Virus record (IMG/VR): IMGVR_UViG_3300025387_000009
DNA: 64,000 nt
Reading direction: 5' to 3' (one strand)
From: a virus
Taxonomy: Duplodnaviria; Caudoviricetes
Shown here: one piece after another, positions 49,835 through 64,000 of the stretch
How the letters are laid out: each line of letters starts with the position of its first letter
Numbering within the stretch: position 1 is the stretch's first letter
Program-made: the position numbers and the translations under genes
The notes under the pieces: generated by a model
Databases searched by the model: none
What the model saw: the letters and a program-made list of their open reading frames with translations, nothing else
What the model was told of the DNA's origin: nothing

Positions 49835-49844
49835 ATAAATTTAT

Positions 49845-50052: not shown

Positions 50053-50128
50053 TGCCAAGTAGCTCAGCGGTAGTAGCGGCAAGCTGTTAACTTGCAAGTC
50101 GTAGGTTCGATCCCTACCTTGGCAGCCA
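50053..50128 (+). tRNA. trnN: tRNA-Asn(GUU)
   Basis: GCAAG-CTGTTAA-CTTGC, G73, CCA. Confidence 0.92.
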
Positions 50129-50178
50129 ACTTTTAAGTTATTTTTGACTTATCTTTGGGGTAAGTAATTAGGAATAAT

Positions 50179-51963
50179 ATGTCTATCCAATTTACGCCTA
50201 CTCTTCAAACACTCCAAATGAATCCAAATGTTGCTTGGAGTAATTCATGGTTTTCTGTCCCAAATACACAAGGAACACCACTTTATGCTCAAGCAGTATT
50301 TCCAGTAAATGCAAGTGGTGCAGGAAATACATATGTAGAGTTTGGTAAGAGAAATAAGAGTGTTGTAGGTGCTGCCAAGGTTTCCCTTTCACAGAATATT
50401 TATGAAGCTGACTTTGAATATGGTCTCCAGCCATTGCGTTGGGAGATTTTTACATCCTCCCAATACGGAACCGCTACCGTGAAACAGTTGCCAGGTATGG
50501 GTGGCGTACTCATGCAAATCCTTTCTGGCGGTGACGTAACCATTCGCCAATCAAGACCTTATCATAGATACCAGCCAGGTAAATCGATGTATATGGCAAC
50601 CGCTACGAATTTTGGAGGTCCTTACGGTGGTCAATATCAACGTGTAGGTTTCTTTGATGATGCAAACGGAATGTTCTTTGAGCAAGGTACACCAGCTTCT
50701 ACTTTAAATTCAACAACATCTTCTGTTTTAGGTTTATCTTATGTTGCGGCTGTTTCTTCTGGTGTATATGCAACAAGTGGTATCAATACAACTGGTTTAA
50801 ATACTTCTTTATCAGCAAATAACCCAGCTGGTATTTATGTTTGTTGGAGAAGTGATATTAATCCTTATGCGTTTACCGGAACTTCAACAAACTCAATTTA
50901 CACTGATTATAAAATAAGTTTTGATCAATGGAGTGATCCAAGTGGAATTAAAAATTCGATCAACTGGAATGATAACCAAATGTTATGGTTAGAATATTCA
51001 TGGTATGGTGCTGGTTGCTTACGTTGGGGTGTTCTTTTAGGAGGCGAACCCTATATTCTCCATGAGCAGACAATGGGTAACTTACAGCAATTTGCGTGGA
51101 GTAGAACTGGTAACTTACCAGTAAGATACGAACAGAGAGATACAACTTTCTCAAATACATCTGCTAATTTCATGCATTATGGTGTATCGGTTATCGTTGA
51201 AGGTCAGAGAGATCCACAAAGAGGATTTACCTATGCTTATGGAAATAGTGCAACCGTAGCTGTTCCTGCTAATAGAACATCAATTCCCTTGATGTCTTTC
51301 CGTCCTCGTACAATGGGTGTAATTGAATATAATAGTTCATATGCTCCTATTACATCAAATCCTGCTCCTACAAACAATTTTATTGCATTTTCTGGTTCAA
51401 ACTGGGCAACTAATCAATTAGTTGGTCGTGCAATTTATTTCCCAAGTTTATCTTCAACAACATATCCAAACGGATATACTGCTAAGATTTCTGCTAACAA
51501 TACAAATTCAATTAGTTTTGTTGATGTTGTTACATTAAGTTCAATTCCATTTACTCCTACTGCTGGTGCTCCTTACCAGATTGGTTTAATTGATCGTGGG
51601 CAAATTCTTCCACAGGATATGTTCATTACTTCAAACGGAACAGCACTTGTTCAGTTAATTGCTTCAACTCCAACAAATCCAGTTAAGTTAACTGGTGCAA
51701 ACTTCCAGCCTCTTTCTGCAAGTGGATCAACTTATTCATTTGCCGAATTGGATTTAAATGCAACTGCTGTAACTGGTGGTGAAGTTGTTTATGGTTTCTT
51801 AACCCCTGCCGCTGGTACGGTTCAGGACGTTAACTTGCAAAACTTCTTCCCATTATATAACAACATCCGTGGAAATACTCCAGATATCTTAACGGTTGCA
51901 GTTACAACTACACAGGCTGTTACTGCTGGTGTACACATTGTTGGTCAGGAAGCAATGTCCTAA
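50179..51963 (+). CDS. Large beta-rich virion-type protein, paralog of 39365..41536
   Basis: RQSRPYHRYQPGKS, QRVGFFDD..MFFEQ, LWLEYSWYGAG; TAAGTA upstream. Confidence 0.7.
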   Translation: MSIQFTPTLQTLQMNPNVAWSNSWFSVPNTQGTPLYAQAVFPVNASGAGNTYVEFGKRNKSVVGAAKVSLSQNIYEADFEYGLQPLRWEIFTSSQYGTATVKQLPGMGGVLMQILSGGDVTIRQSRPYHRYQPGKSMYMATATNFGGPYGGQYQRVGFFDDANGMFFEQGTPASTLNSTTSSVLGLSYVAAVSSGVYATSGINTTGLNTSLSANNPAGIYVCWRSDINPYAFTGTSTNSIYTDYKISFDQWSDPSGIKNSINWNDNQMLWLEYSWYGAGCLRWGVLLGGEPYILHEQTMGNLQQFAWSRTGNLPVRYEQRDTTFSNTSANFMHYGVSVIVEGQRDPQRGFTYAYGNSATVAVPANRTSIPLMSFRPRTMGVIEYNSSYAPITSNPAPTNNFIAFSGSNWATNQLVGRAIYFPSLSSTTYPNGYTAKISANNTNSISFVDVVTLSSIPFTPTAGAPYQIGLIDRGQILPQDMFITSNGTALVQLIASTPTNPVKLTGANFQPLSASGSTYSFAELDLNATAVTGGEVVYGFLTPAAGTVQDVNLQNFFPLYNNIRGNTPDILTVAVTTTQAVTAGVHIVGQEAMS

Positions 51964-52006
51964 AAAAGATCTTGATATTTTTATCAGAACCTATAAAATA
52001 TAGGTA

Positions 52007-52282
52007 ATGAGTAATTCTACATCAAGAGCTTTTCATGGAATTAATAATATTAATCCCAGACCTGAATTGAAAAATTCTTTTCAGGAAAGGGTTTATATTC
52101 CAATTAGTGACCCAAATAGATTTCTACCAATTGAAAATGGTAAAAGGGGTGAAACTATGGTTAATAAAACCATAGAAGAATGGATGAAAGAAAACGGATA
52201 TGATAAGGAAGTTGTATACGAAGAAAAAAGTTTTCTTCAAAAAATAAAGGAATTCATCTTAAACTTTAAACCTTATTTTTAA
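52007..52282 (+). CDS. Hypothetical protein
   Basis: ORF track. Confidence 0.55.
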   Translation: MSNSTSRAFHGINNINPRPELKNSFQERVYIPISDPNRFLPIENGKRGETMVNKTIEEWMKENGYDKEVVYEEKSFLQKIKEFILNFKPYF

Positions 52283-52288
52283 TTTTAT

Positions 52289-52362
52289 TACCCTTTGGTG
52301 TAACGGTAGCACCGCAGTTTTTGGCACTGTGAGTCATGGTTCGAATCCATGAGGGGTAGCCA
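52289..52362 (+). tRNA. trnQ: tRNA-Gln(UUG)
   Basis: GCAGT-TTTTGGC-ACTGT, U1-A72, G73, CCA. Confidence 0.9.
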
Positions 52363-52408
52363 CTTTAATATTGACACAAACAACAAAATAAAATAATATA
52401 GTTTCATA

Positions 52409-52495
52409 GGGTAGATACCGAAGCTGGACAAACGGGAATGACTGTAAATCATTTGGCTATTGCCTTCAGTGGTTCGAATCCACTTCTGCCCACCA
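52409..52495 (+). tRNA. trnY: tRNA-Tyr(GUA)
   Basis: AATGA-CTGTAAA-TCATT, V arm, CCA. Confidence 0.92.
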
Positions 52496-52502
52496 CTTTT
52501 AA

Positions 52503-53189
52503 ATGAACATAAAATATAAACTTGAAGAAATTCACCCCAAGGTTTTCTTGGTAACTATGGACAATTCTTATGATCTTGCGATGACATTTTGCAGGGTTCA
52601 AGAATTTTATGAATCCCCATATAAAGAGATCAGGGGAAAGTATTTTAGTATGATGGAGTTTCAAAGACTCTATACAATGAGAAGAGGTGGAGATTGTTTT
52701 ACCTATCCTATTGATTGGGCAGGGTTTAACGTTCCTAGTCATATCATTGATAAATGTTATGGTTATGTTGATACATTTAAGGATATAAATGAATACGATG
52801 ATGTGATTCAAGAGATTGATCACAAGATTACAAATAGTGATACGGATGCCCCGAAATATTATCTAATCGGTGCTCAAACTGGAAATCAATGCACAATCAA
52901 CCACGAGGTATCTCATGCTTTTTATTATCTTCATAAGGGATACAGAAAGGAAGCAAATGAAATAGTTGAAAAACTCCCAGAAAAACTTTTCAATAAATTC
53001 AAAAAACACTTGCTTGGTATTGGATATAATGATAAAGTCATTAAAGATGAAATTCAGGCTTACCTTTCTTCCGATCCAGAAAATTTAATGGATATTAACG
53101 GAACTACCAAAAAGGAAAATGAAATCATTGGAATTTCAAATATAAAACTTAAAAATCTAAAAAAAGAATATGCAAATCGAAAAGGTTAA
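52503..53189 (+). CDS. Putative zincin metallopeptidase-like protein
   Basis: HEVSH (HEXXH); RVQEFYESP..WAGFNVP. Confidence 0.6.
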   Translation: MNIKYKLEEIHPKVFLVTMDNSYDLAMTFCRVQEFYESPYKEIRGKYFSMMEFQRLYTMRRGGDCFTYPIDWAGFNVPSHIIDKCYGYVDTFKDINEYDDVIQEIDHKITNSDTDAPKYYLIGAQTGNQCTINHEVSHAFYYLHKGYRKEANEIVEKLPEKLFNKFKKHLLGIGYNDKVIKDEIQAYLSSDPENLMDINGTTKKENEIIGISNIKLKNLKKEYANRKG

Positions 53190-53715
53190 AAGCACCAAAG
53201 ATCTTTGGAAGCCACCCACTCTTCCTTGGTGGGAGGAAACTTATTGGAAAATTTGGAGAGTTTGGGATAAAGCATATTGGTATGTTTATTATATCTTTAA
53301 TCATCAACACGAAGCCATTCGTAAGGCTGTGCCAAAGGAATGGAGAGATCTTGATGGAATTGTAGAAGATGTTTTATCGGCTATTATTATCTCATTTGTT
53401 GAAGAGGAAAATGGGTTGGATCAAATCCAAATGATTCTAGACTCCTTGGGTAAGGATGATGAGTATCTTAAGCAAGAATGGGGAAGCGTTGATGCTTTTT
53501 GGGATTACTATGAGGCTCGTTATAAGGATTACCTGAGACTTCAATCTATTTATACATGGGTTAAAACCGGAAGAAAAGCCATGCAAAACTATTTGGATTC
53601 TATTGAGGCTAATGGAAATTGGCAGGAGTACGGAAAAGTTGAACATGATATTCACGAAAGAGATTCTGAATATCTTGCAGATTTGGTTCGTCTTCGTAAA
53701 TATTTGTGGACTTAA
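53170..53715 (+). CDS. Hypothetical protein
   Basis: ORF track. Confidence 0.65.
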   Translation: MQIEKVKSTKDLWKPPTLPWWEETYWKIWRVWDKAYWYVYYIFNHQHEAIRKAVPKEWRDLDGIVEDVLSAIIISFVEEENGLDQIQMILDSLGKDDEYLKQEWGSVDAFWDYYEARYKDYLRLQSIYTWVKTGRKAMQNYLDSIEANGNWQEYGKVEHDIHERDSEYLADLVRLRKYLWT

Positions 53716-53716
53716 T

Positions 53717-53792
53717 GCACGGATAGCACAGCGGTAGTTGCATTCGCCTTACACGCGAAATGTCGTCAGTTCGATCCTGACTCCGTGTACCA
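53717..53792 (+). tRNA. trnV: tRNA-Val(UAC)
   Basis: TTCGC-CTTACAC-GCGAA, CCA. Confidence 0.92.
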
Positions 53793-53824
53793 AGTTCTTT
53801 GTTCTTTGATAAGTATAATTTAAC

Positions 53825-54274
53825 GGGGGTGTACTGGTTTCGACTTAATTGTTGAATGCTATGTATGCAAGCAGTAGTTGATCGCTTGGCTACTATAAAA
53901 GGCGATTAAAACATAAACGCAAAGGCTATAACCAATGCAGTTAATGTAGTCAAGTCATTCGTGACAAATGTTGCAGAGTCTCTCTTCTCCCAAGAAGAAG
54001 ATTACTGTCTCATGGCAGCATAAACACCAAGAGTAGATCCTATTAAGCTCTTGTCGAATCACAATAGGTTGAAGTAGTTCTTGTGATACTCGTAAAATAA
54101 GTGCAAGCGGTGGTATGATGGTCGTTATTCACTCATACAGGTAGGTCTCTAAACATAGATAGGTTGGCATTGCCTTGTTACCTTTAGACAACGAAAGTAC
54201 GAAGTTTGCCAAAGCTTGTGTAGATTATATAGTACCCAATATTAAGGACGGGAGTTCAACTCTCCCCACCTCCA
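53825..54274 (+). ncRNA. ssrA: tmRNA, 450 nt, tag ORF 53919..54023
   Basis: 5' GGGGGTGTACTGGTTTCGAC; 3' GGACGGGAGTTCAACTCTCCCCACCTCCA; G3-U70; tag ends YCLMAA. Confidence 0.92.
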
Positions 54275-54284
54275 AGTTATTTAA

Positions 54285-54358
54285 GGGGGATTAGTTTAGT
54301 GCTAAAACGCTGCACTTGCACTGCGGAGTCTAGGGTTGAATTCCCTAATCCTCCACCA
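54285..54358 (+). tRNA. trnA: tRNA-Ala(UGC)
   Basis: G3-U70, loop CTTGCAC, CCA. Confidence 0.9.
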
Positions 54359-54399
54359 TTATACTTGACAAATAAATAAAAAAATCCTAAGATTAAAAA

Positions 54400-54918
54400 A
54401 TGGCTTTTATCTTAGAGGAAGAAATTATAAAAATTTGTAATGAGTTTGCTGAAAAATGCTGCCCAACAAATAAAGACGAATATGCTAGTAGGAATCAAAC
54501 AAACCTTGAAAAGATAAAGAAAGATATTCGTATAGGAAAAATGGCAGAGTTTGCTGTTTACTATATATTAAAAGAAAAAGGATTGGAAAATCTTACACCA
54601 CCCGATTTAAACATTTATAAAAAGAACGAAAAAAGTTTTGATGCTGACCTGACCTGCGAAGGTTATAAAATTCATGTAAAATCTCAAGATGTGCAATCTG
54701 CTAATGCATGGGGTGATAGTTGGACATTTCAAAAAGAAGATCCACTTATTAAATTAGCAAGTGATCATGATCATTTCATCGGAACTAAAGTTGATGAAAA
54801 AAATAGAAAGGTTGAGATTATGCTTTCACGAAAAGTAAAAGATTTAATATTTGGTCAACCTGTATTAGAAAAACTTAGAAAGTTTAAGGTTTGTGTTTAC
54901 TTGAAAGATAACAATTGA
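54400..54918 (+). CDS. Putative PD-(D/E)XK-like nuclease
   Basis: GKMAEFAV..FDADL..IHVKSQ. Confidence 0.5.
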   Translation: MAFILEEEIIKICNEFAEKCCPTNKDEYASRNQTNLEKIKKDIRIGKMAEFAVYYILKEKGLENLTPPDLNIYKKNEKSFDADLTCEGYKIHVKSQDVQSANAWGDSWTFQKEDPLIKLASDHDHFIGTKVDEKNRKVEIMLSRKVKDLIFGQPVLEKLRKFKVCVYLKDNN

Positions 54919-54989
54919 CAAATAAATAAAACCTGTTAGGATTATAAATTATGAATAATAACAACACGCTGAAAAGCTAGGAGGTAATT

Positions 54990-55625
54990 TTGGGAATGTT
55001 CGATAATATCAAATGTCAATTGCCTCTTCCATTGAATAAGAAGGAGCAAGCAAAGTTTTCCAATGTAAATTGGGATGAACAAGTTTTTCAATCTAAGGAT
55101 TTAGATTGCACACTTTCAACCTATATCATTAAAAAGAATGGTAAGGTTTATGGTCTTTTTGTTGAAGGTGAAAAAGTTCGTGTGATTTCCGAAAAGGAAG
55201 AAAAGAAAATTAAAAAGCAAGGTCGCTTCTGCTGGCCCTACGAATTTAAGGAGAAATCTAGAAAGTATAAGTTTGAAAAGTTTACTGGTGATCTTTATTT
55301 CTACGATCACATAGAAGATAACGATGGAAACGAGTGGTGGGTAGAATTCGTTGGAAAGTTTGTTAACGGAGTTATCCAAGGAAAACTTAAAAAAGTTGAA
55401 GTTCGTTTGTTTCAAACCGCAGAAGAGATAAAAAAAAATGAAGAGAATTGGCAAGAAAAAATTGCATTAGAACAAGCCAAACTTTCCAATAGAATCAAAA
55501 AAACTTTAAACAAATATACTGGTGGATACTGGAGAATTTTTTGGATTACTTTTGGTGGATACATTAGAAAATTTGCAAATAAAATTCAACACTTGGATAT
55601 TTGGATTAATCGTAACATCGCATAA
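54990..55625 (+). CDS. Conserved phage hypothetical protein
   Basis: MGMFDNIKC..FQSKDLDC motif. Confidence 0.65.
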   Translation: MGMFDNIKCQLPLPLNKKEQAKFSNVNWDEQVFQSKDLDCTLSTYIIKKNGKVYGLFVEGEKVRVISEKEEKKIKKQGRFCWPYEFKEKSRKYKFEKFTGDLYFYDHIEDNDGNEWWVEFVGKFVNGVIQGKLKKVEVRLFQTAEEIKKNEENWQEKIALEQAKLSNRIKKTLNKYTGGYWRIFWITFGGYIRKFANKIQHLDIWINRNIA

Positions 55626-55626
55626 T

Positions 55627-55885
55627 ATGACAAAATATATTACAATTCTATTAAGTTGTGTTTTTTTTTGGATGTACAGTTAACGGAGATTATGTAGTTT
55701 CTACCCCTGCTGTAAGTTACGCATACACATATCCTTATAGTTATGGATATGTATATCCTTATTATGGCTACACTTATCCTTACTATGGTGGTTGGGGTTG
55801 GGGTGGTTGGGGATATGGTTGGGGTGGATATTATGGCAGTTGGGGATATCGTGGTGGATGGGGTGGCGGTTGCTATCATAGATAA
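55627..55885 (+). pseudogene. Gly/Tyr/Trp-rich lipoprotein split by a T9 tract
   Basis: ATG 55627 frame stops after 18 aa; T8 would give MTKYITILLSCVFFGC fused to the YGGWG-rich ORF. Confidence 0.55.
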
Positions 55886-55922
55886 TCATTGACACAATTC
55901 CAAATTTATATATTATAGTAAT

Positions 55923-56765
55923 ATGAACATTATAGCTATTGGAGATATCCATAACCATTGGGTCGAAGCTGAACAGATTGCTTCTTTGTATGATAAGACT
56001 CATACTGTAGTTTTTACTGGTGATTATTTTGATGATTTTGGTGATACTGCCAATGATGCAATTCAGACTGCAAAGTGGCTCAAGGAATCTCTTGATAAGC
56101 CTAATCGTATCCATTTGATGGGTAATCATGATATCAATTATTCGTATTTGAATTATCTTAAAGACGAAAGTGGTCATATTCAAAACATTTATAATTGTTC
56201 TGGATATCATATGACTAAAGATGATGCTATTAATCGTGTGATGGATGAACAAGCATGGGATAAAATCAAGTTTGCTCATTTTGGTAATGGTGTATGGTTT
56301 ACTCATGCTGGTATTCACCCTCATTGGTTTGAACATCCTGTTAAGGGAATGGCTAACGATGTTATCATTGATAAAATTGCAAAGGCTACTGATGATTATC
56401 TTAATCGTACTTGGAATGAAATCATTGGTGCAGTAGGTCGTTGTCGTGGTGGTGTGCAAAGAGTTGGAGGAATTCTTTGGTGTGATGACTTTCAAGAAGG
56501 TCATGTTACTAGGGGATTACGCCAAGTTTATGGTCATACTCCTACTATGGGAAAAATTAATACTTGGTATGAGAATGGCGGTCTCAATGCCAATATTGAT
56601 TGCGGTCTTTGCCAAGTTCTTGAGATCGATGAAGATGGTAACGTAGAAGCACTTGATACGGATTTTCCAAACTTTTATCTTACTGCCCAAGAAAAAAGAA
56701 GAAAAAAAGCCTTGGAAACTATCGGTGCATATGATAGTATCTATAAAGATTTACCATTTGTATAA
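55923..56765 (+). CDS. Calcineurin-like metallophosphoesterase
   Basis: GDIHN, GDYFDD, GNHD, THAG, GHT. Confidence 0.88.
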   Translation: MNIIAIGDIHNHWVEAEQIASLYDKTHTVVFTGDYFDDFGDTANDAIQTAKWLKESLDKPNRIHLMGNHDINYSYLNYLKDESGHIQNIYNCSGYHMTKDDAINRVMDEQAWDKIKFAHFGNGVWFTHAGIHPHWFEHPVKGMANDVIIDKIAKATDDYLNRTWNEIIGAVGRCRGGVQRVGGILWCDDFQEGHVTRGLRQVYGHTPTMGKINTWYENGGLNANIDCGLCQVLEIDEDGNVEALDTDFPNFYLTAQEKRRKKALETIGAYDSIYKDLPFV

Positions 56766-56768
56766 AAT

Positions 56769-57080
56769 ATGAAACTGATCCCAATATCAACATTTCGAAA
56801 CAGCTATGTCATCCATGTAAGCAGAGATGTAGCCGAGATCTATGCAAAATACATTGAAGAATTGTCTTCATATGAAAACATGGATGGTGTAGCTGTTATC
56901 GTTAATACTACTGGTGCTTGTGCTATAGTTATCCCAAATGACAAGCCCATTAAGAAGATTGAAACAAATCTTTTTCAATTTGGTAGCAACAACCCCGAAA
57001 CAAAAAATTCTGGATTTTGGGGGCAGTGGGGATTTCATGAGCCTTCTTATCCCGCTAATGATGGATGGACAAAAATATGA
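56769..57080 (+). CDS. Hypothetical protein
   Basis: ORF track. Confidence 0.55.
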   Translation: MKLIPISTFRNSYVIHVSRDVAEIYAKYIEELSSYENMDGVAVIVNTTGACAIVIPNDKPIKKIETNLFQFGSNNPETKNSGFWGQWGFHEPSYPANDGWTKI

Positions 57081-57289
57081 TAATGGAAATTATTAAAATA
57101 TCGGCGGCAATTATTCTCAGTGTAACAGCACTAGGTATAGTTATCTTTCTTTTAACTTTTGCTTATTGGTTAGCAAGTGGGTTTATTCAAGGCGTTAAAG
57201 AAACATTGAAAGACCTTCCCAAAATAATCGAAGAAAGAAAAGCCGAAAGAATCAGGAGAAAACTAGACAATAAAAACTATTACAAATGA
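57077..57289 (+). CDS. Small membrane protein
   Basis: TM helix. Confidence 0.55.
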   Translation: MIMEIIKISAAIILSVTALGIVIFLLTFAYWLASGFIQGVKETLKDLPKIIEERKAERIRRKLDNKNYYK

Positions 57290-57576
57290 GCGAAACAAAA
57301 TATAAAATTGTATATGATGAAATGTCCTGCTATGGTTGGGGATTTTCTATCAATGATGTGTGGAGGAGTGGAGAAGTAGAAGAAAGCGTTAAGCAACCCG
57401 AAGAGGATGATGAACTTCTGGATTATCTTCTCCTTAAACTCAAAGAAGGAATTAAAGACAATACCTGTTCATTCAAAGATCTTGTAGAATGCTTTCAATG
57501 TGATGATACTGAATTTGATCGAAGCTCTTGTGATGATTGTGGTCATTCTGGGTATAGAACAACTTGGAATATATGA
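57286..57576 (+). CDS. Hypothetical protein, C-terminal CDDC
   Basis: ORF track. Confidence 0.6.
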   Translation: MSETKYKIVYDEMSCYGWGFSINDVWRSGEVEESVKQPEEDDELLDYLLLKLKEGIKDNTCSFKDLVECFQCDDTEFDRSSCDDCGHSGYRTTWNI

Positions 57577-57875
57577 AAGATAAAGCTAAAACATTCTGGT
57601 TTGGAATAAAGATAACAGTTTGTATATTGGCTATACCTCTTACACCTATTTTAGTTATAACAGGATGTGCGTATTTTGATCCACCTGAACCTACCCATTA
57701 TTATAAGATCCAAAGGTTAAATTATAACGGTGAAGTAATTCAAACTTATTATAGTAAGTCATATCCTTGGGGAACAGACTTTATTGACTTTAAAGAATAT
57801 CCTTCTGACAAGTGGATTAAGTTTAAATCTCCTTATACTGCTGAAGATATCGGAACAAACAAACCTATTTTTTAA
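57573..57875 (+). CDS. Membrane-anchored hypothetical protein
   Basis: TM ending ITGC. Confidence 0.55.
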   Translation: MKDKAKTFWFGIKITVCILAIPLTPILVITGCAYFDPPEPTHYYKIQRLNYNGEVIQTYYSKSYPWGTDFIDFKEYPSDKWIKFKSPYTAEDIGTNKPIF

Positions 57876-58003
57876 TATGCAAGATTATACTAATGGTGAT
57901 CCAATTTTAATGGGATTTTTTATTTTACTCATAGGATGTGTAGTGTGGGGACTTTTTAATAATAAATCTTGACTCTCTTTTAATATTCCATAAAATAAAA
58001 CTG

Positions 58004-58234
58004 ATGACTGTAAAAGAACTAATAGAACAACTTCAGAAATTTGATCCAGAACAAATTGTTGTTGTGGATGGTTATGAAACTGGATTTGATGAAATAAAAG
58101 AAGTAGAATATATTGCTGGTCTTAAAAAGTTACCAGAAGATAAAGCTTGGTACGATGGCGAATATCAAAAAGCACCAAATATAACTTGGATGCAAGATCT
58201 TGTGAATGCTGTTTACCTCCCTCGTTTATCATGA
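58004..58234 (+). CDS. Conserved small phage protein
   Basis: MTVKELIEQLQKFDPE..VVVDGYE. Confidence 0.65.
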   Translation: MTVKELIEQLQKFDPEQIVVVDGYETGFDEIKEVEYIAGLKKLPEDKAWYDGEYQKAPNITWMQDLVNAVYLPRLS

Positions 58235-58650
58235 AAGGTGTAATCTCTTTTGATTTTGATGACACACTTGCGTCATTATCTGATGAAAAGCAAGGTCTTC
58301 TTTGGTGTATAATGGATGTATTAAAACCCATCCAAAAGGTTATTGATCTTGTTTTCGAAAAGCATAATGAAGGATATATCATTGATATCGTGACTGCAAG
58401 AGATGCATGGGCAATACAAGAAGTTCGTGATTTTATTGAAGAACATAAATTACCAATTCGTAAAATTCATTACACTGCTGGTGGATCAAAAGTACCAATT
58501 CTTAAAGAAATTAAAAGTGTTCTCCATGTTGATGATATTCTCAATCATGTAATTCAAGCTGAAATGAATGGAATTCCTTGTCTTTTGGTTGATGATGGTA
58601 GACATAAAAATAATACTACCGCCGATCAATTTGATAAAATTTTGATTTGA
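58231..58650 (+). CDS. HAD-superfamily phosphatase-like protein
   Basis: ISFDFDDTL, VTAR, SK, HVDD. Confidence 0.75.
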   Translation: MKGVISFDFDDTLASLSDEKQGLLWCIMDVLKPIQKVIDLVFEKHNEGYIIDIVTARDAWAIQEVRDFIEEHKLPIRKIHYTAGGSKVPILKEIKSVLHVDDILNHVIQAEMNGIPCLLVDDGRHKNNTTADQFDKILI

Positions 58651-58683
58651 CAGAATTAGAAAGTTCAATTACTATATAAAAAT

Positions 58684-59040
58684 ATGAAATACCAAATACG
58701 CAAAGTAGAAGAGATAACCCTGTGGCAAGCAACCGAGGTTGCAGAACTTGATCCAGAGGCATTTAGGAACCTTGAGGAGAATCCCTACACTGGTAATAGT
58801 GAAGAGGAATTTCTAAAGTATATCCAAGGATTTATCAATAATTGCAGATGGGATGGGTTCCCAAGCGATCTTGACGATGATGTAGAAGAGGAACTCGACA
58901 AGATGGTAGATAATGTCATGTGGACAGAGTATGCCAATTCCTGTGAGAAGGGAGAAACTTCTTGGTTCCAGAGTGGAGAGAAGAACGATGAATATCGTAA
59001 GACCGGAGGATTTAAGATTAATTTTGACGTAGCAAATTAA
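58684..59040 (+). CDS. Acidic hypothetical protein
   Basis: TTGACA-17-TACTAT upstream. Confidence 0.65.
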   Translation: MKYQIRKVEEITLWQATEVAELDPEAFRNLEENPYTGNSEEEFLKYIQGFINNCRWDGFPSDLDDDVEEELDKMVDNVMWTEYANSCEKGETSWFQSGEKNDEYRKTGGFKINFDVAN

Positions 59041-59276
59041 TGAATAACAATACCAGTGTTCAAGTAAATGTAAAACTTGATGATTATTTTTTAACATTCA
59101 GACAATCGCCAGATAATTACGAATGGACTGAAATGTTTACTATGGATACTTGTTCAAGTCATTTGGACGCAAATCGTCACCCTAGAAGTTTTATGACTTT
59201 TGAAAACTATGAGCTTGATTCTATCATTAAAGCATTGACAGCATATAGAGATACTGTTAAGATGATAAGACAATAA
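59040..59276 (+). CDS. Hypothetical protein
   Basis: TAATG overlap. Confidence 0.55.
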   Translation: MNNNTSVQVNVKLDDYFLTFRQSPDNYEWTEMFTMDTCSSHLDANRHPRSFMTFENYELDSIIKALTAYRDTVKMIRQ

Positions 59277-59279
59277 TTT

Positions 59280-59391
59280 GACTAGGGTGCGAGTTCTTAA
59301 AGCTAAAGAACTTCCGCAACAGGTGATAGCGAAGCATAGTATACGATGAACGTGTAGCCTGTCCGAAGTACTGTCAAGGTATTTCCTAGTC
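59280..59391 (+). ncRNA. Candidate four-stem intergenic RNA
   Basis: GACTAGG/CCTAGTC closing stem; GAGTTCTT/AAGAACTT; ACAGG/CCTGT; AGTAC/GTATT. Confidence 0.45.
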
Positions 59392-59405
59392 TCCCCTTTA
59401 AAAAT

Positions 59406-59738
59406 ATGACAAAACAATCCTTTGAAAAGATTATTTTAAACCTCCAACTTGCTCATAAGAAATCTCGTGAGTTATATAAGTTTGGTGTTGATCTCATGCA
59501 GTATGATGAAAACTATGAGTTTGTAATTGATGAACTATTTAAAGCAACCTTTAATGAAGAACAGAGAGGTTGGGTTGATTGGTTCCTTTATGAGAGAGAA
59601 GGATTCAACGGTAAGATTCAAAAAGCATGGAAAAAAGTTGGTAGAAAGAAAGTAGAGATTTGCCACACAATTGATTCATTATGGGAAACGGTTCATGAAG
59701 CCGGTCATCCTCAAAAAATTGATCCTAATAGAATATGA
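59406..59738 (+). CDS. Hypothetical protein
   Basis: ORF track. Confidence 0.65.
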   Translation: MTKQSFEKIILNLQLAHKKSRELYKFGVDLMQYDENYEFVIDELFKATFNEEQRGWVDWFLYEREGFNGKIQKAWKKVGRKKVEICHTIDSLWETVHEAGHPQKIDPNRI

Positions 59739-59992
59739 AAAAGAAAAAGAAAGAAAAATTCAATTACGAACTTATTCGTAATGGTATACAGTTCTTGAAT
59801 GATCTGAACAATGCAAAGAATGAATCTTTGTATTTCCATAAAGAGAATGAAAATTACTATGAGACTCCTGATTGGCTTCAGAATCGTTATAACCAAGCTA
59901 TGCAAGATCTTGGTCGCTGGTTAGTCAGAGACTATCAAGAGGAAGATGAATACATGGATGCACTAGAATCCACTGGTGATACTGATTTTTAA
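59735..59992 (+). CDS. Hypothetical protein
   Basis: ORF track. Confidence 0.55.
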   Translation: MKKKKKEKFNYELIRNGIQFLNDLNNAKNESLYFHKENENYYETPDWLQNRYNQAMQDLGRWLVRDYQEEDEYMDALESTGDTDF

Positions 59993-59996
59993 TATT

Positions 59997-60287
59997 ATGG
60001 ACATAGAATCAATTGATCCCACCAAAATAAAGAAAATACCCTTTATTAATGTGGAACTTGCTGAAGTTGGAGATGGGTTTTCTATTACAAATGTAATATG
60101 GAAAACTAGTCATGTTCATACTAATAGTGTTATTAGTGCATGTACTAATATTTTACACACCTTTATTAATAGTGCTCCAGAAGAAAAACAAATTGAACTA
60201 GAAGAATATCTAATGAATGGTTTGATTAAAAATATGCAAGATCGTTTTGAACACACAAGAAGTGTTGTAGTTGACATCTCATCTTAA
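59997..60287 (+). CDS. Hypothetical protein
   Basis: ORF track. Confidence 0.55.
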   Translation: MDIESIDPTKIKKIPFINVELAEVGDGFSITNVIWKTSHVHTNSVISACTNILHTFINSAPEEKQIELEEYLMNGLIKNMQDRFEHTRSVVVDISS

Positions 60288-60330
60288 ATGTAACCTTCCC
60301 ACTACATATTTCCGAAATATGTATAAGGAT

Positions 60331-60369
60331 CTTGACACCTCCTCCTAAAGCATATAGAATAAGATTATG
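60331..60369 (+). promoter_or_regulatory. Repeated promoter, copy 1
   Basis: CTTGACA-CCTCCTCCTAAAGCATA-TAGAAT-AAGATT-ATG. Confidence 0.85.
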
Positions 60370-60472
60370 AAACAACTTAAGAACCTTTTTTATACAGTCA
60401 TTGCAACTATTGCAGCACTCTATGTCTATTATCTGATCTCTGGTGAAGTAATTTGTTTTAAGCATCTTTAAA

Positions 60473-60781
60473 ATGGAACAAGAGATTTCAAGCTCTGAAT
60501 TTGATGTCATTGTAAAGAAGACAAATAGCTATCACTGTAAGGATGGTGGTCCTATAAATCTGTTTTGTAAGTTTCCATCCATAAAACAGAGTGTACATGT
60601 TGCTTGTTGCAGACAATTTCAGAGTTTTAATGATATGCTTAATTGGCTTATTGAAAACAAAGGCATTGTTCTTTATAAGATATATGATACACCTAATGGT
60701 TTCATTGTGAGATATTATGATGATGTTAAGTTTAACTGGCTCACAAAGTTATGGCATAGCTTTTGGTCTTTTTGGATTTAA
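60473..60781 (+). CDS. Hypothetical protein
   Basis: ORF track. Confidence 0.55.
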   Translation: MEQEISSSEFDVIVKKTNSYHCKDGGPINLFCKFPSIKQSVHVACCRQFQSFNDMLNWLIENKGIVLYKIYDTPNGFIVRYYDDVKFNWLTKLWHSFWSFWI

Positions 60782-60783
60782 TT

Positions 60784-60822
60784 CTTGACACCTCCTCCTA
60801 AAGCATATAGAATAAGATTATG
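60784..60822 (+). promoter_or_regulatory. Repeated promoter, copy 2
   Basis: Identical to copy 1 over 39 bp. Confidence 0.85.
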
Positions 60823-61944
60823 AATACAGAAAACACAAATGCAGCAAAAGAATTACCAAAGGTTTTGACATTTGGTGAAAACAATGAATGGGCAGTTCAT
60901 CATGATGATGGATGTCTAATTTTTCATCCTCAATGGAATACCAATCCCCATAATACCTCTACATATATTTGGAGAGAAGCTTGGGAGTTTGTCCAGAATC
61001 AAGGTGGGTTTGATAATCTTGTTGCTCGTCTTAGAGATATAAAAGCCAGAAAGTATAAGAAACTTCTTCTTAACTTTGCAGAAGAGACAGGTGTTGATCC
61101 ATCCTTTGTTGGATTCCAAGGACATGACTTTAGTTTCCGTGGTATGAGTGGAGCAGAGGATGCAGCTATGACAGGTGCTGGTCACTTGACTAGCTTTGTA
61201 GGAACCGATACTGTTCCTGCTATCGACTTCCTCGAAGACTATTATAACGCTAATGCAGATAAAGAACTTGTTGGTTGTTCTGTTCCTGCTACTGAGCATA
61301 GTGTCATGACTCTTAATGCCAAATTTGGTGAGGGAGAGCCTGATGAGTATGATAGCTTCAAGCGTCTTATTACCGAACTCTATCCTATTGGTATTGTTTC
61401 TATTGTCTCTGATAGTTTTGATTTTTGGGGAGTTCTTAGTAAGATTTTACCTAACCTAAAAGAAGAGATCATGGCTCGTAATGGCAAGGTTGTCATTCGT
61501 CCTGACTCTGGAGACCCAGTTAAGATCGTAGCAGGATATAATAACGATGAATACTATCTTGACAATGGTTACTTCAAAGAAGTTGGTACTGATAAGATTC
61601 TTAATCTTAATGAGATTATTGGTGCAGTAGAACTTTTATGGGCTATTTTTGGTGGAACTGTTACTGATAAAGGTTATAAGTCTTTGGATTCGCATATTGG
61701 GCTGATCTATGGTGATTCTATCACACTTGATCGTGCAAATGAAATCCTTACTCGTTTGAAGAACAAGGGATTTGCTTCCAACAATATCGTCTTTGGTATT
61801 GGTTCTTACACCTATCAGTACCAGACTCGTGATACTCTTGGCTTTGCTGTTAAGGCAACCGCTGGTATCGTCAATGGTGAGGTCAAGGAGATCTTCAAGA
61901 AGCCTAAGACCGATGATGGTATGAAGAATAGTGCAGGATGTTGA
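60820..61944 (+). CDS. nadV: Nicotinamide phosphoribosyltransferase core, truncated at both ends and fused to an unrelated N-terminus
   Basis: HDFSFRG, SVPATEHSVM, SIVSDS, VIRPDSGDP, IYGDSIT, FGIGSYTYQY..RDT.GFAVKAT. Confidence 0.85.
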   Translation: MNTENTNAAKELPKVLTFGENNEWAVHHDDGCLIFHPQWNTNPHNTSTYIWREAWEFVQNQGGFDNLVARLRDIKARKYKKLLLNFAEETGVDPSFVGFQGHDFSFRGMSGAEDAAMTGAGHLTSFVGTDTVPAIDFLEDYYNANADKELVGCSVPATEHSVMTLNAKFGEGEPDEYDSFKRLITELYPIGIVSIVSDSFDFWGVLSKILPNLKEEIMARNGKVVIRPDSGDPVKIVAGYNNDEYYLDNGYFKEVGTDKILNLNEIIGAVELLWAIFGGTVTDKGYKSLDSHIGLIYGDSITLDRANEILTRLKNKGFASNNIVFGIGSYTYQYQTRDTLGFAVKATAGIVNGEVKEIFKKPKTDDGMKNSAGC

Positions 61945-61969
61945 CACCTCCTCCTAAAGCATATAGAAT
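61941..61969 (+). promoter_or_regulatory. Repeated promoter, copy 3
   Basis: Its TTGACA supplies the NAMPT stop codon. Confidence 0.85.
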
Positions 61970-61978
61970 ATAAAAACC

Positions 61979-62149
61979 ATGAATAAACAATTTACAAAAG
62001 TATTTGATAATGTTAGTGCCCAGATTGAAGATGCTATAGCTCCTGTTTATGAGCTTTTTGCAAATGAAAAAATTACAAGTAAAGAATATGTAGATTTTTT
62101 AACTTTACAAGTAGAATGGTTAAATGAAGAGATAAAAAACCATCAATAG
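61979..62149 (+). CDS. Small hypothetical protein (56 aa)
   Basis: Hand-translated MNKQFTKVFD... Confidence 0.55.
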   Translation: MNKQFTKVFDNVSAQIEDAIAPVYELFANEKITSKEYVDFLTLQVEWLNEEIKNHQ

Positions 62150-62339
62150 AACTCTATTAAAATAATATGACTAAAGAATCAGTCTATGTGACAATTAAAT
62201 TTTCTGAAAGTAAACCACTCAAAATTATGAAATTTCTTTTAAATGGAATATTTGAAGTCTTTAAAGGCATTGGATTAATTTTTACATGTAGAAAATAATT
62301 TTCTTGCATTGTCCTAAAATTTCCAATATATTAAAAATC

Positions 62340-62603
62340 ATGAAAAACAAACTATACTTGTATCTCATCTCACAGAATGTCAACAATGACTATGACACTT
62401 ATGATTCAGCAGTTGTTGTGGCTCCTAATCCAAAATCAGCAAAGCTAATACATCCTTGTGGTGATTATGTGTTGTCAGAACTAGATTGGAAAAAAGATTG
62501 CACTTGGTGTCCTTCGCCTAATGATGTAAATGTGAAGTGTATTGGTGTAGCATCTAAAGGTCAAAAAGTAGGTGTTGTTTTATCTTCTTATAATGCTGGA
62601 TAA
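62340..62603 (+). CDS. Conserved small phage protein
   Basis: YDTYDSAVVVA..HP..IGVA..SYNAG. Confidence 0.65.
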   Translation: MKNKLYLYLISQNVNNDYDTYDSAVVVAPNPKSAKLIHPCGDYVLSELDWKKDCTWCPSPNDVNVKCIGVASKGQKVGVVLSSYNAG

Positions 62604-62643
62604 TTTTCTTGCATTATCCTGAAATTTCTAATATACTGAATGT

Positions 62644-62892
62644 ATGAAAATTAACTATGGTTGGTATATAAGAGATAAAAACACAGGAAATCTTGTTTGT
62701 GCTGATGATTATATCAGTTACATTAACGAGGATAGATATGTAAAGTGTACCTATCCTAGATTCAAATACGAAAGTTTTTTAACTGAAGAAGATGCTGTTA
62801 AAGCTCTTAATGAATATCTTAATTATAAATATCATGAACCATATGAGGGTACATATGTCCTTTTAAAGGAATTTGGTCAACCAACTAATTAA
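62644..62892 (+). CDS. Hypothetical protein
   Basis: Preceded by second copy of a TTTTCTTGCATT..AATATA promoter (62298 and 62603). Confidence 0.6.
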   Translation: MKINYGWYIRDKNTGNLVCADDYISYINEDRYVKCTYPRFKYESFLTEEDAVKALNEYLNYKYHEPYEGTYVLLKEFGQPTN

Positions 62893-63348
62893 ATGAATAA
62901 AACTATGAACATAAAAAAAATATTAAAAGAACTTGTGACTTATTATGAATACACAAGACAAGCTGGACACACTACTGCTGTTATTGAAGGTGTAAGATAT
63001 AAACCAAAAACTATTGTTGTCACCAATTCTAAAGAAATGAGCAATCATTATAAAGAGGTATGCTCAGATGAACTCCATACAATAACACTCAATTATATTG
63101 GCAGTAGTTTGAGAGGACACAACAGACCCATTGTTTTTGATAATGCAGCATTGCATGTAATTTTTAGTGAAGCATTAAAGACAATTGAAAGTATTGAAAC
63201 CAAGAACAATGGTAATCAAGAAAAAGATATCTTTGATATTATGGATGTGCTTTCTGGAGATATTGAAGAGGTTGTCATAAAGGGAATCAGATATAAGAAG
63301 ATTACAGAAACAAAAACTACTTGGAAAAAGCTTGACACCTCCTCCTAA
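62893..63348 (+). CDS. Hypothetical protein whose stop lies in promoter repeat 4
   Basis: Ends KLDTSS, encoded by the repeat. Confidence 0.6.
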   Translation: MNKTMNIKKILKELVTYYEYTRQAGHTTAVIEGVRYKPKTIVVTNSKEMSNHYKEVCSDELHTITLNYIGSSLRGHNRPIVFDNAALHVIFSEALKTIESIETKNNGNQEKDIFDIMDVLSGDIEEVVIKGIRYKKITETKTTWKKLDTSS

Positions 63349-63369
63349 AGCATATAGAATAAGAATATG
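63331..63369 (+). promoter_or_regulatory. Repeated promoter, copy 4
   Basis: One mismatch to copy 1. Confidence 0.85.
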
Positions 63370-63660
63370 CAAAAAAATTATTATATTGCTGAAGATATAG
63401 ATCAAGTTGTTCTTGGTGCTATTGGTTACAAAGTAACTCATCAAGATGGACAAATTATTTTTGAAGAGGCAGCACCATTTCACTGGGCGCATAAGGTATT
63501 TGCTTTTGAAAAGATAAAAGGAATAAACAACACTGCTGGTATTTGGTATTTAGTTCACATGGATTCAAGTAGTGAAAGAGTTCCAGCACATCACATTTAT
63601 GGAGCAATAGAATACTGTGAAGATGTTTATGGAAAAAGCTTTGAAGGGCTACCAACATAA
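63367..63660 (+). CDS. Hypothetical protein
   Basis: ORF track. Confidence 0.6.
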   Translation: MQKNYYIAEDIDQVVLGAIGYKVTHQDGQIIFEEAAPFHWAHKVFAFEKIKGINNTAGIWYLVHMDSSSERVPAHHIYGAIEYCEDVYGKSFEGLPT

Positions 63661-63665
63661 AACCT

Positions 63666-63704
63666 CTTGACACTTCCTCCTAAAGCATATAGAATAAGAT
63701 TATG
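63666..63704 (+). promoter_or_regulatory. Repeated promoter, copy 5
   Basis: One mismatch to copy 1; drives a ~34-aa hydrophobic ORF. Confidence 0.85.
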
Positions 63705-63807
63705 AACATTGATTTAAATTCTAAAACAGTATTTGTCACAATATTTGTAGTGTATTCTATATTTTGTTATACATTTGGCTATGCAATTGGCAGATTTTTT
63801 AAATAAG

Positions 63808-63846
63808 CTTGACACCTCCTCCTAAAGCATATAGACTGTAAAAATG
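63808..63846 (+). promoter_or_regulatory. Repeated promoter, copy 6
   Basis: TTGACA-17-TAGACT, ATG 63844. Confidence 0.8.
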
Positions 63847-64000
63847 AATTGCCCTTATGACTATGATGACCCAGAGTTTAGACTCGAGTGGTTTGAAGAC
63901 ATACTAGAAAAAGTAGAACTGGAAAGAGATGCTCTGTGGGTCAAAACTCAAGAGGATGAGAGGGAGATTAATCAGTTGAGGGATATTAATAATGAGTTGA
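63844..64000 (+). CDS. Hypothetical coiled-coil protein, runs off window
   Basis: MNCPYDYDDPEF... open to the edge. Confidence 0.5.
   Translation, partial: MNCPYDYDDPEFRLEWFEDILEKVELERDALWVKTQEDEREINQLRDINNEL

What the first reader, a model, noticed from the sequence alone, without database searches (positions are those of the whole stretch)
60331..63846. Array of gene cassettes each headed by the same ~35-bp promoter
Seen: six near-identical copies of TTGACA-CCTCCTCCTAAAGCATA-TAGAAT, even in the normally free spacer, 140-1400 bp apart, each followed by an ATG. Upstream ORFs run into the repeat for their stops (KLDTSS; NAMPT TGA). A second duplicated promoter lies at 62298/62603. Known: repeated early-promoter modules (PeSLs) mediate gene shuffling in some T4-type phages. 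Inference: a recombination-driven, integron-like expression platform that captures, excises and reorders accessory genes.
Basis: partly seen in the sequence, partly recalled or inferred. Interest (0 to 1): 0.7.

Follow-up and report, generated by a model that had tools for sequence, protein, structure and literature searches.

The report
Leaderless promoter cassettes shuffling phage genes
An uncultured T4-like phage sets the same 38-base bacterial-type promoter directly against the start codon of its small early genes, and genes are swapped between phages at these units; this is a variant of the promoter cassettes already known in T4-type phages, not an integron.

Summary
There are six copies of TTGACA-N17-TAGAAT with an invariant spacer: four exact and two with one mismatch, against 0 expected by chance. 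A second promoter family has two more copies. The window is a T4-like phage (rIIA/rIIB, 17 tRNAs, tmRNA).

The repeat unit is about 38 bp and combines three things: stop codons for the upstream gene, a near-consensus sigma70 promoter, and a 6-nt discriminator followed by ATG. The predicted mRNAs are therefore leaderless. Across viral and metagenome contigs I found 294 distinct copies, and 76% keep exactly this geometry. They head about 190 different gene starts.

- **Reassortment:** Flanks reassort at the unit. 62 of 65 recurrent left flanks have at least two right partners.
- **Population variant:** Genomes identical over 13 kb diverge exactly at the left edge of one copy.
- **Recombination scar:** A nicotinamide phosphoribosyltransferase gene is cut off by one copy.
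- **Recent exchange:** Cassette DNA is 93-99% identical between phages whose background is 64-79% identical.

No integrase, attC-like hairpin or stem-loop is present. The best reading is therefore homology-driven shuffling of the PeSL kind, in a form with no terminator, no Shine-Dalgarno sequence and no leader. It is not an integron.

The transcription start and excised circles were not testable here. This scan has already reported the same kind of cassette in this genome and in many other lake phages.

The parts
60332..60369 (+). Module 1: TTGACA, 17-nt invariant spacer, TAGAAT, AAGATT, ATG
   Evidence: Exact 29-mer. ATG lies 6 nt after the -10. 11/12 match to the sigma70 consensus.
60367..60471 (+). 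34-aa hydrophobic ORF (w34a), the most mobile cassette gene
   Evidence: An identical or 94-100% identical protein occurs in many other contexts. 31 of 35 loci anchored on it have an unrelated left flank.
60473..60781 (+). 102-aa ORF, start overlapping-coupled to w34a (TAAAATG), no family
   Evidence: The 95% identical homologue in L044 has a different N-terminus and its own module.
60785..60822 (+). Module 2 (exact), ATG 6 nt after the -10
60820..61944 (+). Chimeric, truncated NAMPT ORF (374 aa). About 66 codons of a small cassette gene are fused in frame to NAMPT codons 162-458, and the ORF is cut off by module 3.
   Evidence: PHROG 448 positions 169-439 of 500. Full-length 513-aa relative P0004. 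Junction alignments. The N-terminal 76 aa equal a stand-alone gene present twice in G005.
61941..61981 (+). Module 3 (exact), ATG 9 nt after the -10. Its TGA ends the NAMPT remnant.
61979..62298 (+). ORFs of 56 and 43 aa
   Evidence: 94-96% nt identity in G001 and G003, against a 64-79% background.
62304..62342 (+). Second-family module: TTGCAT-N17-TATATT, 7 nt, ATG
   Evidence: D10; D3.
62340..62603 (+). 87-aa ORF, PHROG 5444 (function unknown)
62609..62646 (+). Second-family module: TTGCAT-N17-TATACT, 6 nt, ATG
62644..63348 (+). ORFs of 82 and 151 aa. The second ends ...KLDTSS with its stop in the spacer of module 4.
   Evidence: A homologue of the C-terminal 33 aa lies upstream of modules in other phages.
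63332..63369 (+). Module 4 (exact), ATG 6 nt after the -10
63367..63660 (+). 97-aa ORF, no family
63667..63704 (+). Module 5 (1 mismatch), ATG 6 nt after the -10
63702..63806 (+). 34-aa hydrophobic ORF (w34b)
63809..63846 (+). Module 6 (TAGACT variant), ATG 6 nt after the -10. Its left edge is the breakpoint of a population variant.
   Evidence: L038 is 100% identical to window 50820-63806 and unrelated from 63807 on.
63844..64000 (+). Start of a gene of a multi-copy paralogue family (w52), running off the window
   Evidence: Several copies per related genome. It contains the rejoin point of the population variant, and position 63930 is a recurrent breakpoint.

Best explanation
Each repeat is a self-contained junction unit of about 38 bp in the early, hyperplastic region of an uncultured T4-like phage. 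Reading 5' to 3', it closes the upstream gene with a TGA inside the -35 hexamer or a TAA in the spacer. It then offers the host sigma70 RNA polymerase a near-consensus promoter (TTGACA, 17 nt, TAGAAT). It places the A of the next gene's ATG exactly where transcription should begin, 6 nt after the -10. Every small early gene is thus expressed from its own promoter as a leaderless mRNA, with no Shine-Dalgarno sequence and no terminator. Inferred: because the units are identical, they also serve as portable homology for the phage's general recombination system. Crossovers at or near the left part of the unit move 'unit plus downstream gene' cassettes within a genome and between co-infecting phages. 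These events produce deletions, replacements, duplications, half-units and truncated genes. No dedicated recombinase is involved. Shown here: the sequence anatomy, its conservation, and the reassortment and breakpoints. Inferred: promoter activity, the transcription start, and homologous recombination as the mechanism.
For: **Promoter and leaderless geometry**
- Match to consensus is 11/12 with a 17-nt spacer.
- Of 294 distinct copies, 223 (76%) have exactly 6 nt between the -10 and the ATG, and 257 have 5-9 nt.
- In the whole window, 20 of 52 strong sigma70-like sites have an ORF-opening ATG 5-9 nt after the -10, against 0.5 in shuffles (maximum 2). 14 of these 20 have unrelated spacers, so the design is genome-wide.
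- Only 4 of 78 ORFs have a Shine-Dalgarno-like 4-mer.
- The leaderless translation pathway tolerates leaders of up to about 5 nt (PMC4007540).

**Stop function**
- 61 of 97 upstream ORFs end inside the unit: 34 at the spacer TAA and 27 at the -35 TGA.

**One family by descent**
- A spacer-blind scan of IMG/VR found 46 units, 45 of them with the same spacer family.
- The exact 29-mer occurs in 21 IMG/VR contigs and 87 metagenome stretches.

**Reassortment**
- 62 of 65 recurrent left flanks join at least 2 right flanks, and 47 of 49 recurrent right flanks join at least 2 left flanks.
- Homology-block ends fall on units 96 times, against 22.6 expected.
- 64 of 68 gene junctions with a unit are breakpoints, against 197 of 277 without one (odds ratio 6.5, p = 3e-5).
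- 7 of the window's 8 units have relatives in which one flank is kept and the other is unrelated.

**Population level**
- Three independent assemblies are identical to the window up to 63806 and then differ. Two other assemblies share the window's form.

**Scars**
- NAMPT is cut 5 nt before a -35 hexamer.
- A half-unit and a gene fusion that lost its unit occur in L038.

**Recent exchange**
- Unit plus gene segments are 93-99% identical to G001-G005, whose other matches are 64-79%. The rIIA of G002 is only 39% identical.
- The 3' half of the unit travels with the downstream gene: 40% identical against 14-17%.
Against: - There are no RNA data, so the transcription start and promoter activity are inferred from geometry only.
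- The host is unknown.
- The region is hyperplastic everywhere. 71% of gene junctions without a unit are also breakpoints, and w34a also moves with breakpoints at its own start and stop codons, without a unit. The unit is therefore a preferred junction, not the only one.
- The right end of the population variant and the 5' fusion point of NAMPT are not at units.
- The invariance of the spacer is not explained by promoter function alone, because other leaderless promoters in the window have unrelated spacers. A bound regulator cannot be excluded.
- Circles were not looked for.
Confidence: 0.72

Rival explanations
1. The repeats are only strong early promoters kept by selection for expression. 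Mosaic junctions coincide with them simply because viable recombinants must break between genes, and the units sit between genes. Recombination is illegitimate or uses other short homologies.
For: 71% of unit-free gene junctions near the arrays are also breakpoints. w34a reassorts at its own start and stop codons without a unit. The NAMPT 5' fusion and the right end of the L038 variant lie outside units.
Against: Units are breakpoints more often than other junctions (94% against 71%, p = 3e-5). Block ends fall on units 4 times more often than expected. Half-units exist. Exact identity of 29-38 bp is shared by phages whose other DNA is 64-79% identical. Other promoters in the same phage do not need this spacer.
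Confidence: 0.15
2. This is an integron-like platform: a site-specific recombinase captures and excises cassettes at the repeat.
For: The layout is a same-strand array of single-gene cassettes bounded by one repeat. The same gene appears in many contexts.
Against: No integrase family appears among the precomputed Pfam hits for 10 kb on either side. The unit has no self-complementarity (-0.4 kcal/mol). Each cassette has its own promoter. Breakpoints are not at one fixed base.
Confidence: 0.03
3. The unit is mainly a binding site, for a phage or host regulator on the DNA or for a translational repressor on read-through RNA. The sigma70 likeness is secondary.
For: The 17-nt spacer and the 6-nt discriminator are as conserved as the hexamers (86-100% per position). 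Other leaderless promoters of the phage have free spacers.
Against: Hexamers, spacer length and distance to the ATG all fit the sigma70 geometry exactly. That geometry is shared by 14 unrelated promoters in the window. Shared descent and recent spread also explain the invariance. This reading can coexist with the best explanation.
Confidence: 0.07
4. The apparent shuffling is an artefact of metagenome assembly at a shared repeat.
Against: The repeat (38-42 bp) is shorter than usual final k-mers and reads. The window's order is recovered in at least 5 independent assemblies from JGI and ENA samples, and the alternative form in 3. Scars such as the in-frame NAMPT chimera recur identically in 13 contigs.
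Confidence: 0.03

Closest known systems
PeSLs (promoter-early stem-loops), the mobile regulatory cassettes of T4-type phages RB49/phi1, T4/PST and KVP40/nt-1 (Arbiol et al. 2010, PMC2839356; Comeau et al. 2014, PMC4122927)
   Same: Both have a near-consensus sigma70 early promoter with N17 spacing, repeated between small ORFans in the hyperplastic regions of T4-type genomes. Both sit at insertions, deletions and replacements between relatives. Both leave degraded half-elements. In both, homologous recombination on less than 50 bp of homology is the proposed mechanism.
   Different: This unit has no stem-loop or terminator: upstream ORFs end inside it, and upstream folding energy equals the control. 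It has no Shine-Dalgarno sequence, and the ATG sits at the predicted +1, making the mRNA leaderless. The whole 29-38 bp, spacer included, is almost invariant. It is shared by phage lineages as far apart as 39% rIIA identity, not only by close pairs. Mini-circles, shown for PeSLs, were not tested.
Integron gene cassettes (IntI, attI/attC, Pc)
   Same: Both are same-strand arrays of single-gene cassettes that are gained, lost and reordered. In both, the same gene is found in many arrays.
   Different: There is no integrase, no attC hairpin and no single shared promoter. Joints are not at one fixed base.
Leaderless mRNAs of bacteria and phages (for example lambda cI from PRM, from my own knowledge; Deinococcus deserti, PMC4007540)
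   Same: The -10 hexamer lies about 6-7 nt before a 5'-terminal AUG, and there is no Shine-Dalgarno sequence.
   Different: Here the arrangement is a repeated, mobile unit that heads about 190 different genes in a phage community. Transcription starts have not been mapped.
T4 early promoters (from my own knowledge: they carry conserved positions beyond the two hexamers)
   Same: Both are host-sigma70-dependent early promoters with extra conserved positions.
   Different: T4 early genes have leaders and Shine-Dalgarno sites. Conservation here is near-total identity, not a consensus.

Membership tests
PeSL cassettes of T4-type phages | Sigma70-like early promoter, -35 and -10 hexamers 17 nt apart | tested here: met
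   TTGACA-N17-TAGAAT, 11/12 match, in all six copies.
PeSL cassettes of T4-type phages | Stem-loop (terminator) just upstream of the promoter | tested here: not met
   Upstream 52-nt folding energy is -5.99 against -5.63 kcal/mol in controls (p = 0.27). 61 of 97 upstream ORFs end inside the unit, which leaves no room for a stem-loop. No terminator-like site is found beside the units.
PeSL cassettes of T4-type phages | Shine-Dalgarno sequence and start codon at the 3' end of the element | tested here: not met
   The start codon is present, but it lies 6 nt after the -10 with no Shine-Dalgarno sequence. Shine-Dalgarno motifs are rare in the whole window (4 of 78 ORFs).
PeSL cassettes of T4-type phages | Location among small ORFans in a hyperplastic region of a T4-type genome | tested here: met
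   rIIA and rIIB are present, with the best cultured relatives being KVP40-like and other T4-type phages at 42% identity or less. 8 of 10 ORFs in and next to the array have no Pfam or PHROG family that passes the curated cut-off.
PeSL cassettes of T4-type phages | Association with indels and replacements between relatives | tested here: met
PeSL cassettes of T4-type phages | Formation of mini-circles by recombination between neighbouring elements | not testable with these tools
Integron | Adjacent tyrosine-recombinase integrase (IntI) | tested here: not met
   No integrase family appears among the Pfam hits on record for all called genes within 10 kb on either side (L038). The rest of the genome was not searched.
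Integron | attC-type imperfect hairpin at cassette borders | tested here: not met
   The unit folds at -0.4 kcal/mol, and the flanks are not more structured than controls.
Integron | Promoterless cassettes read from one common promoter | tested here: not met
   Eight promoter-like units lie in 3.5 kb, and most cassettes have their own.
Leaderless mRNA | Transcription start at, or within about 5 nt of, the start codon | not testable with these tools
   Only the geometry is known: a 6-nt discriminator in 76% of 294 copies. No RNA data were available.
Leaderless mRNA | AUG start codon and no Shine-Dalgarno sequence | tested here: met
   ATG in all six window copies, and AAGATT or a similar sequence before it.

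The most novel reading that the evidence does not exclude
The 38-bp unit is a community-wide currency of gene exchange: a recombinase-free counterpart of the integron cassette. Because it is at once a stop signal, a promoter, a transcription start and a translation start, any ORF attached to it is expressed wherever it lands. Because it is identical in many phage lineages of the same waters (rIIA identity down to 39%), it lets those lineages trade about 190 different early genes by ordinary homologous recombination. Its invariance would then be maintained by this double use.
Probability: 0.4. Interest if true: 0.75.

Novelty: new variant of a known kind. Interest (0 to 1): 0.55.

Why it matters
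How large lytic phages acquire and turn over their many small early genes of unknown function is an open question. Many of these genes are thought to act in host take-over and counter-defence. This case offers a compact and countable system: one 38-bp unit, about 300 sequenced contexts and about 190 genes. In it, expression signals and recombination substrate are the same sequence, and exchange is visible between nearly identical genomes as well as between distant lineages. It also points to a T4-like lineage that appears to express early genes, and many others, as leaderless, Shine-Dalgarno-free messages. I found no published account of that arrangement for T4-type phages, and it says something about the unknown host's translation. 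The practical gain is modest but real. The unit is a search handle for early genes in viromes, and a candidate for a minimal portable expression element.

Tried and rejected
- **Own genome:** Not held, so copies elsewhere in the genome were counted only through near-identical contigs.
- **Cultured relatives:** Megablast against cultured phages found only a short NAMPT match, so there is no cultured relative.
- **Host promoter copy:** The unit, with 3 free positions, has no match in 185,579 bacterial and archaeal species genomes. It is therefore not a copied host promoter in any reference genome, and no host clue came from it.
- **Earlier findings by sequence:** Nothing returned.
- **PeSL stem-loop:** Looked for and not found.
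- **Anti-Shine-Dalgarno reading:** I considered that the CCTCC stretch of the spacer mimics the anti-Shine-Dalgarno sequence. I rejected this as idle, because the phage hardly uses Shine-Dalgarno sites and the spacer is not in the unit's own transcript.
- **MotA box reading:** The reverse complement of the spacer contains a T4 MotA-box-like TGCTTTA. I rejected this because the -10 it would need falls in the non-conserved flank.
- **Shared CCTAAA motif:** It occurs in the spacers of both promoter families but in different registers, so it is not a positional motif.
- **Three-frame stop:** The unit closes all three frames, but this is not unlikely by chance for an AT-rich 39-mer, so I make no claim of selection. 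Almost no upstream ORF uses the third frame, and I cannot explain that.
Full report
**1. The observation**

The 29-mer TTGACACCTCCTCCTAAAGCATATAGAAT occurs six times on the + strand of the window. Four copies are exact (60332, 60785, 61941, 63332) and two have one mismatch (63667, 63809). None of 100 shuffles gave a single match. The repeat finder extends the unit to about 42 nt, from one or two bases before TTGACA to ATGAA (family D2).

Each copy is followed by an ATG that opens an ORF. ORF 62893-63348 ends ...KLDTSS with its TAA in the spacer. ORF 60820-61944 ends on the TGA inside TTGACA.

The 'second duplicated promoter' is also real. TTGCAT-N17-TATATT lies at 62304 and TTGCAT-N17-TATACT at 62609, with the ORF start 7 and 6 nt after the -10.

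**2. Where it sits**

The window encodes rIIA and rIIB, 17 tRNAs and a tmRNA. Its best cultured relatives by rIIA are KVP40-like and other T4-type phages, at 42% identity or less. It is therefore an uncultured, distant T4-like phage with 37% G+C.

No whole genome is held. The chimeric protein of the array is found on 13 contigs, the longest of about 225 kb.

Most genes in the array are short, from 34 to 151 aa. 8 of the 10 ORFs scanned in and next to it have no Pfam or PHROG family that passes the curated cut-off. The exceptions are a NAMPT fragment and one PHROG of unknown function.

**3. Anatomy of the unit**

The hexamers match the sigma70 consensus at 11 of 12 positions, with the optimal 17-nt spacer. 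Five of the six window copies have exactly 6 nt (AAGATT or similar) between the -10 and the ATG. With the canonical 6-nt discriminator, the A of the ATG is the predicted +1.

This geometry holds widely. I collected 294 distinct copies (at most 4 mismatches, different flanks) from IMG/VR, metagenome contigs and near-identical contigs.

| Measure | Count of 294 |
|---|---|
| Exactly 6 nt between -10 and ATG | 223 (76%) |
| 5-9 nt between -10 and ATG | 257 |

Every one of the 29 positions is conserved in 86-100% of copies.

The unit also closes the upstream gene. In 61 of 97 copies the upstream ORF ends inside it, 34 at the spacer TAA and 27 at the TGA of the -35.

There is no stem-loop. The 52 nt upstream fold no better than random windows of the same loci (-5.99 against -5.63 kcal/mol, p = 0.27). 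The unit itself is unstructured (-0.4 kcal/mol).

**4. The leaderless design is genome-wide**

In the 64-kb window, 52 sites match the sigma70 consensus at 10 or more of 12 positions. Of these, 20 have an ORF-opening ATG 5-9 nt after the -10. Shuffled sequence gives 0.5 on average and never more than 2.

Fourteen of the 20 are unique promoters with unrelated spacers. They stand in front of, for example, the 354-aa ORF at 8565 and the metallophosphatase at 55923.

Only 4 of 78 ORFs of 80 aa or more have a Shine-Dalgarno-like 4-mer upstream.

This supports two inferences. These sites are real promoters, and this phage expresses many genes as leaderless messages. It also shows that the invariant spacer of the repeat is not needed for promoter function as such.

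The transcription start itself remains inferred, because no RNA data could be reached. Leaders of up to about 5 nt still use the leaderless pathway (PMC4007540).

**5. One family, widely spread**

- The exact 29-mer is present in 28 stretches from 21 IMG/VR contigs and in 87 metagenome stretches.
- It is absent from 185,579 bacterial and archaeal species genomes.
- Whole records carry 4 to 14 copies, nearly all on one strand and clustered.
- A scan that left the spacer free returned 46 distinct units, 45 of them with the same spacer family.

The carriers are not close kin. The rIIA of G002 (154 kb, terminal repeats) is 39% identical to the window's, and G001 gave no rIIA match.

**6. Reassortment at the unit**

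Among the 294 copies there are 177 kinds of left flank and 193 kinds of right flank.

| Test | Result |
|---|---|
| Recurrent left flanks joined to at least 2 right flanks | 62 of 65 (up to 7 partners) |
| Recurrent right flanks joined to at least 2 left flanks | 47 of 49 (up to 15 partners) |
| Homology-block ends on units, inside array spans | 96 observed, 22.6 expected (maximum 38 in 1000 trials) |
| Gene junctions with a unit that are breakpoints | 64 of 68 (94%) |
| Gene junctions without a unit that are breakpoints | 197 of 277 (71%) |

The last comparison is a control for 'breaks must fall between genes'. It gives an odds ratio of 6.5 (p = 3e-5).

The whole region is therefore hyperplastic, and the units are its preferred joints, not its only ones. 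For 7 of the window's 8 units, at least one sequenced relative keeps one flank at 90-100% identity while the other flank is unrelated.

The 3' half of the unit and its discriminator go with the downstream gene. They are identical in 40% of pairs that share only the right flank, against 14-17% otherwise. The 5' half does not go with the left flank. The mobile entity is therefore 'unit plus downstream gene'.

**7. Variants among nearly identical genomes**

Contig L038 (JGI 3300025382, 224,987 bp) is 100% identical to window 50820-63806. It becomes unrelated from 63807, two bases before the -35 of unit 6.

L038 carries 1.18 kb with two more units and four ORFs at that point. The two forms rejoin inside the conserved C-terminal part of a multi-copy paralogue.

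| Form | Assemblies |
|---|---|
| Window form | Window, L040 and L043 |
| Alternative form | L038, L039 and L041 |

These come from different JGI and ENA samples, which argues against assembly error.

L038 also shows two other scars. One is a half-unit: a -10, a discriminator and an ATG directly after a stop codon. The other is a copy of the 34-aa gene w34a that has lost its unit and is fused in frame to an upstream ORF.

w34a itself occurs in at least seven sequence contexts. The identical protein lies beside four more kinds of neighbours.

**8. A gene broken by the array**

ORF 60820-61944 matches nicotinamide phosphoribosyltransferase only over profile positions 169-439 of 500. Relatives 95% identical in that part have a full 513-aa gene with its N-terminal domain (P0004).

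Alignment with L044 shows DNA homology from codon 162 to codon 458. It ends 5 nt before the -35 of unit 3.

The first 66 or so codons of the window ORF are those of a small stand-alone cassette gene. That gene is present twice in G005, each time followed by a unit.

Compared with the L044 arrangement, the window lacks about 4.1 kb that holds nine genes, among them a PRPP-synthetase-like gene. No homologue of these is found anywhere in the window. The same in-frame chimera recurs in 13 contigs.

It is a recombination scar. One end is at a unit and the other end is not.

**9. Recent exchange between lineages**

A 20-kb query (window 44001-64000) against G001-G005 matches ordinary genes at 64-79% nucleotide identity. 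It matches 'unit plus gene' segments at 93-99%:

- Unit 1 plus w34a is 98-99% identical in G002 and G003.
- Unit 3 plus the 56/43-aa genes is 94-96% identical in G001 and G003.
- Unit 6 plus the next 87 nt is 98% identical in G001.

The high-identity segments begin at or inside the unit. This is the signature of recent lateral transfer of cassettes between diverged phages.

**10. Mechanism and comparison with known systems**

The closest known system is the PeSL of T4-type phages. A PeSL is a sigma70-like early promoter with a stem-loop terminator upstream and a Shine-Dalgarno sequence and start codon downstream. PeSLs are repeated in hyperplastic regions, sit at indels between close relatives, leave half-elements, and were shown to form mini-circles by recombination on less than 50 bp of homology (PMC2839356, PMC4122927).

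The present unit shares the promoter, the location, the link with rearrangements and the half-elements. It fails two defining features, the stem-loop and the Shine-Dalgarno sequence. It adds the leaderless geometry and near-total sequence invariance across distant lineages. I therefore file it as a variant that works like a PeSL, not as a member in the strict sense.

The integron comparison fails on all three defining features:

- No integrase appears in the Pfam hits on record within 10 kb.
- There is no attC-like hairpin.
- There is one promoter per cassette, not one for the array.

Homologous recombination at the unit is inferred, not shown. Site-specific action is unlikely, because the joints are not at a fixed base.

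**11. Earlier notes of this scan**

After I had reached the leaderless and PeSL reading, a look-up showed that the scan had already described the same kind of cassette elsewhere in this genome (e1-5363537). It had also described it in many other lake T4-like phages. Those notes agree with the present result and were not used as evidence.

**12. Verdict**

- **Classification:** It is a new variant of a known kind.
- **Open points:**
  - promoter activity and the transcription start;
  - why the spacer is invariant;
  - whether circles form;
  - the host.

Noticed in passing
window 15706-29562: Eight or more copies of a 37-38-nt box with inverted ends (TTGGGTA ... TACCCAA), often beside longer conserved stretches, lie in the rIIA/rIIB part of the window (families D1, D3, D8, D9).
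   Followed up: no
window 53825-54275: The phage encodes a one-piece tmRNA (Rfam RF00023, 104 bits; ARAGORN tag ending ...DYCLMAA) among 17 tRNA genes. G002 has a 74% identical stretch.
   Followed up: partly
whole window: Shine-Dalgarno motifs are almost absent: 4 of 78 ORFs of 80 aa or more. Upstream regions are A/T-rich instead. This says something about the unknown host's translation initiation.
   Followed up: partly
window 63844-64000; L038 14060-14311; several copies in G001, G003, G005: A multi-copy paralogue family has a variable N-terminus and a conserved C-terminal part (...LERDALWVKTQEDEREIN...). Recombination joints recur at the border between the two parts, including window 63930.
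   Followed up: partly
L044 8661-11542: Relatives with the intact NAMPT also carry a PRPP-synthetase-like gene (Pribosyltran_N) two genes upstream, forming an NAD-salvage pair. The window's phage has lost this pair except for the NAMPT fragment.
   Followed up: partly
module copies in all loci: Upstream ORFs that end inside the unit use the -35 TGA (27 cases) or the spacer TAA (34 cases). Almost none use the third frame, which would read through to a TGA overlapping the next ATG (1-2 cases). I have no explanation for this.
   Followed up: no
window 42315-42416: A tandem duplication of a 51-nt coding segment (82% identical) lies inside ORF 41554-42495 (D16).
   Followed up: no
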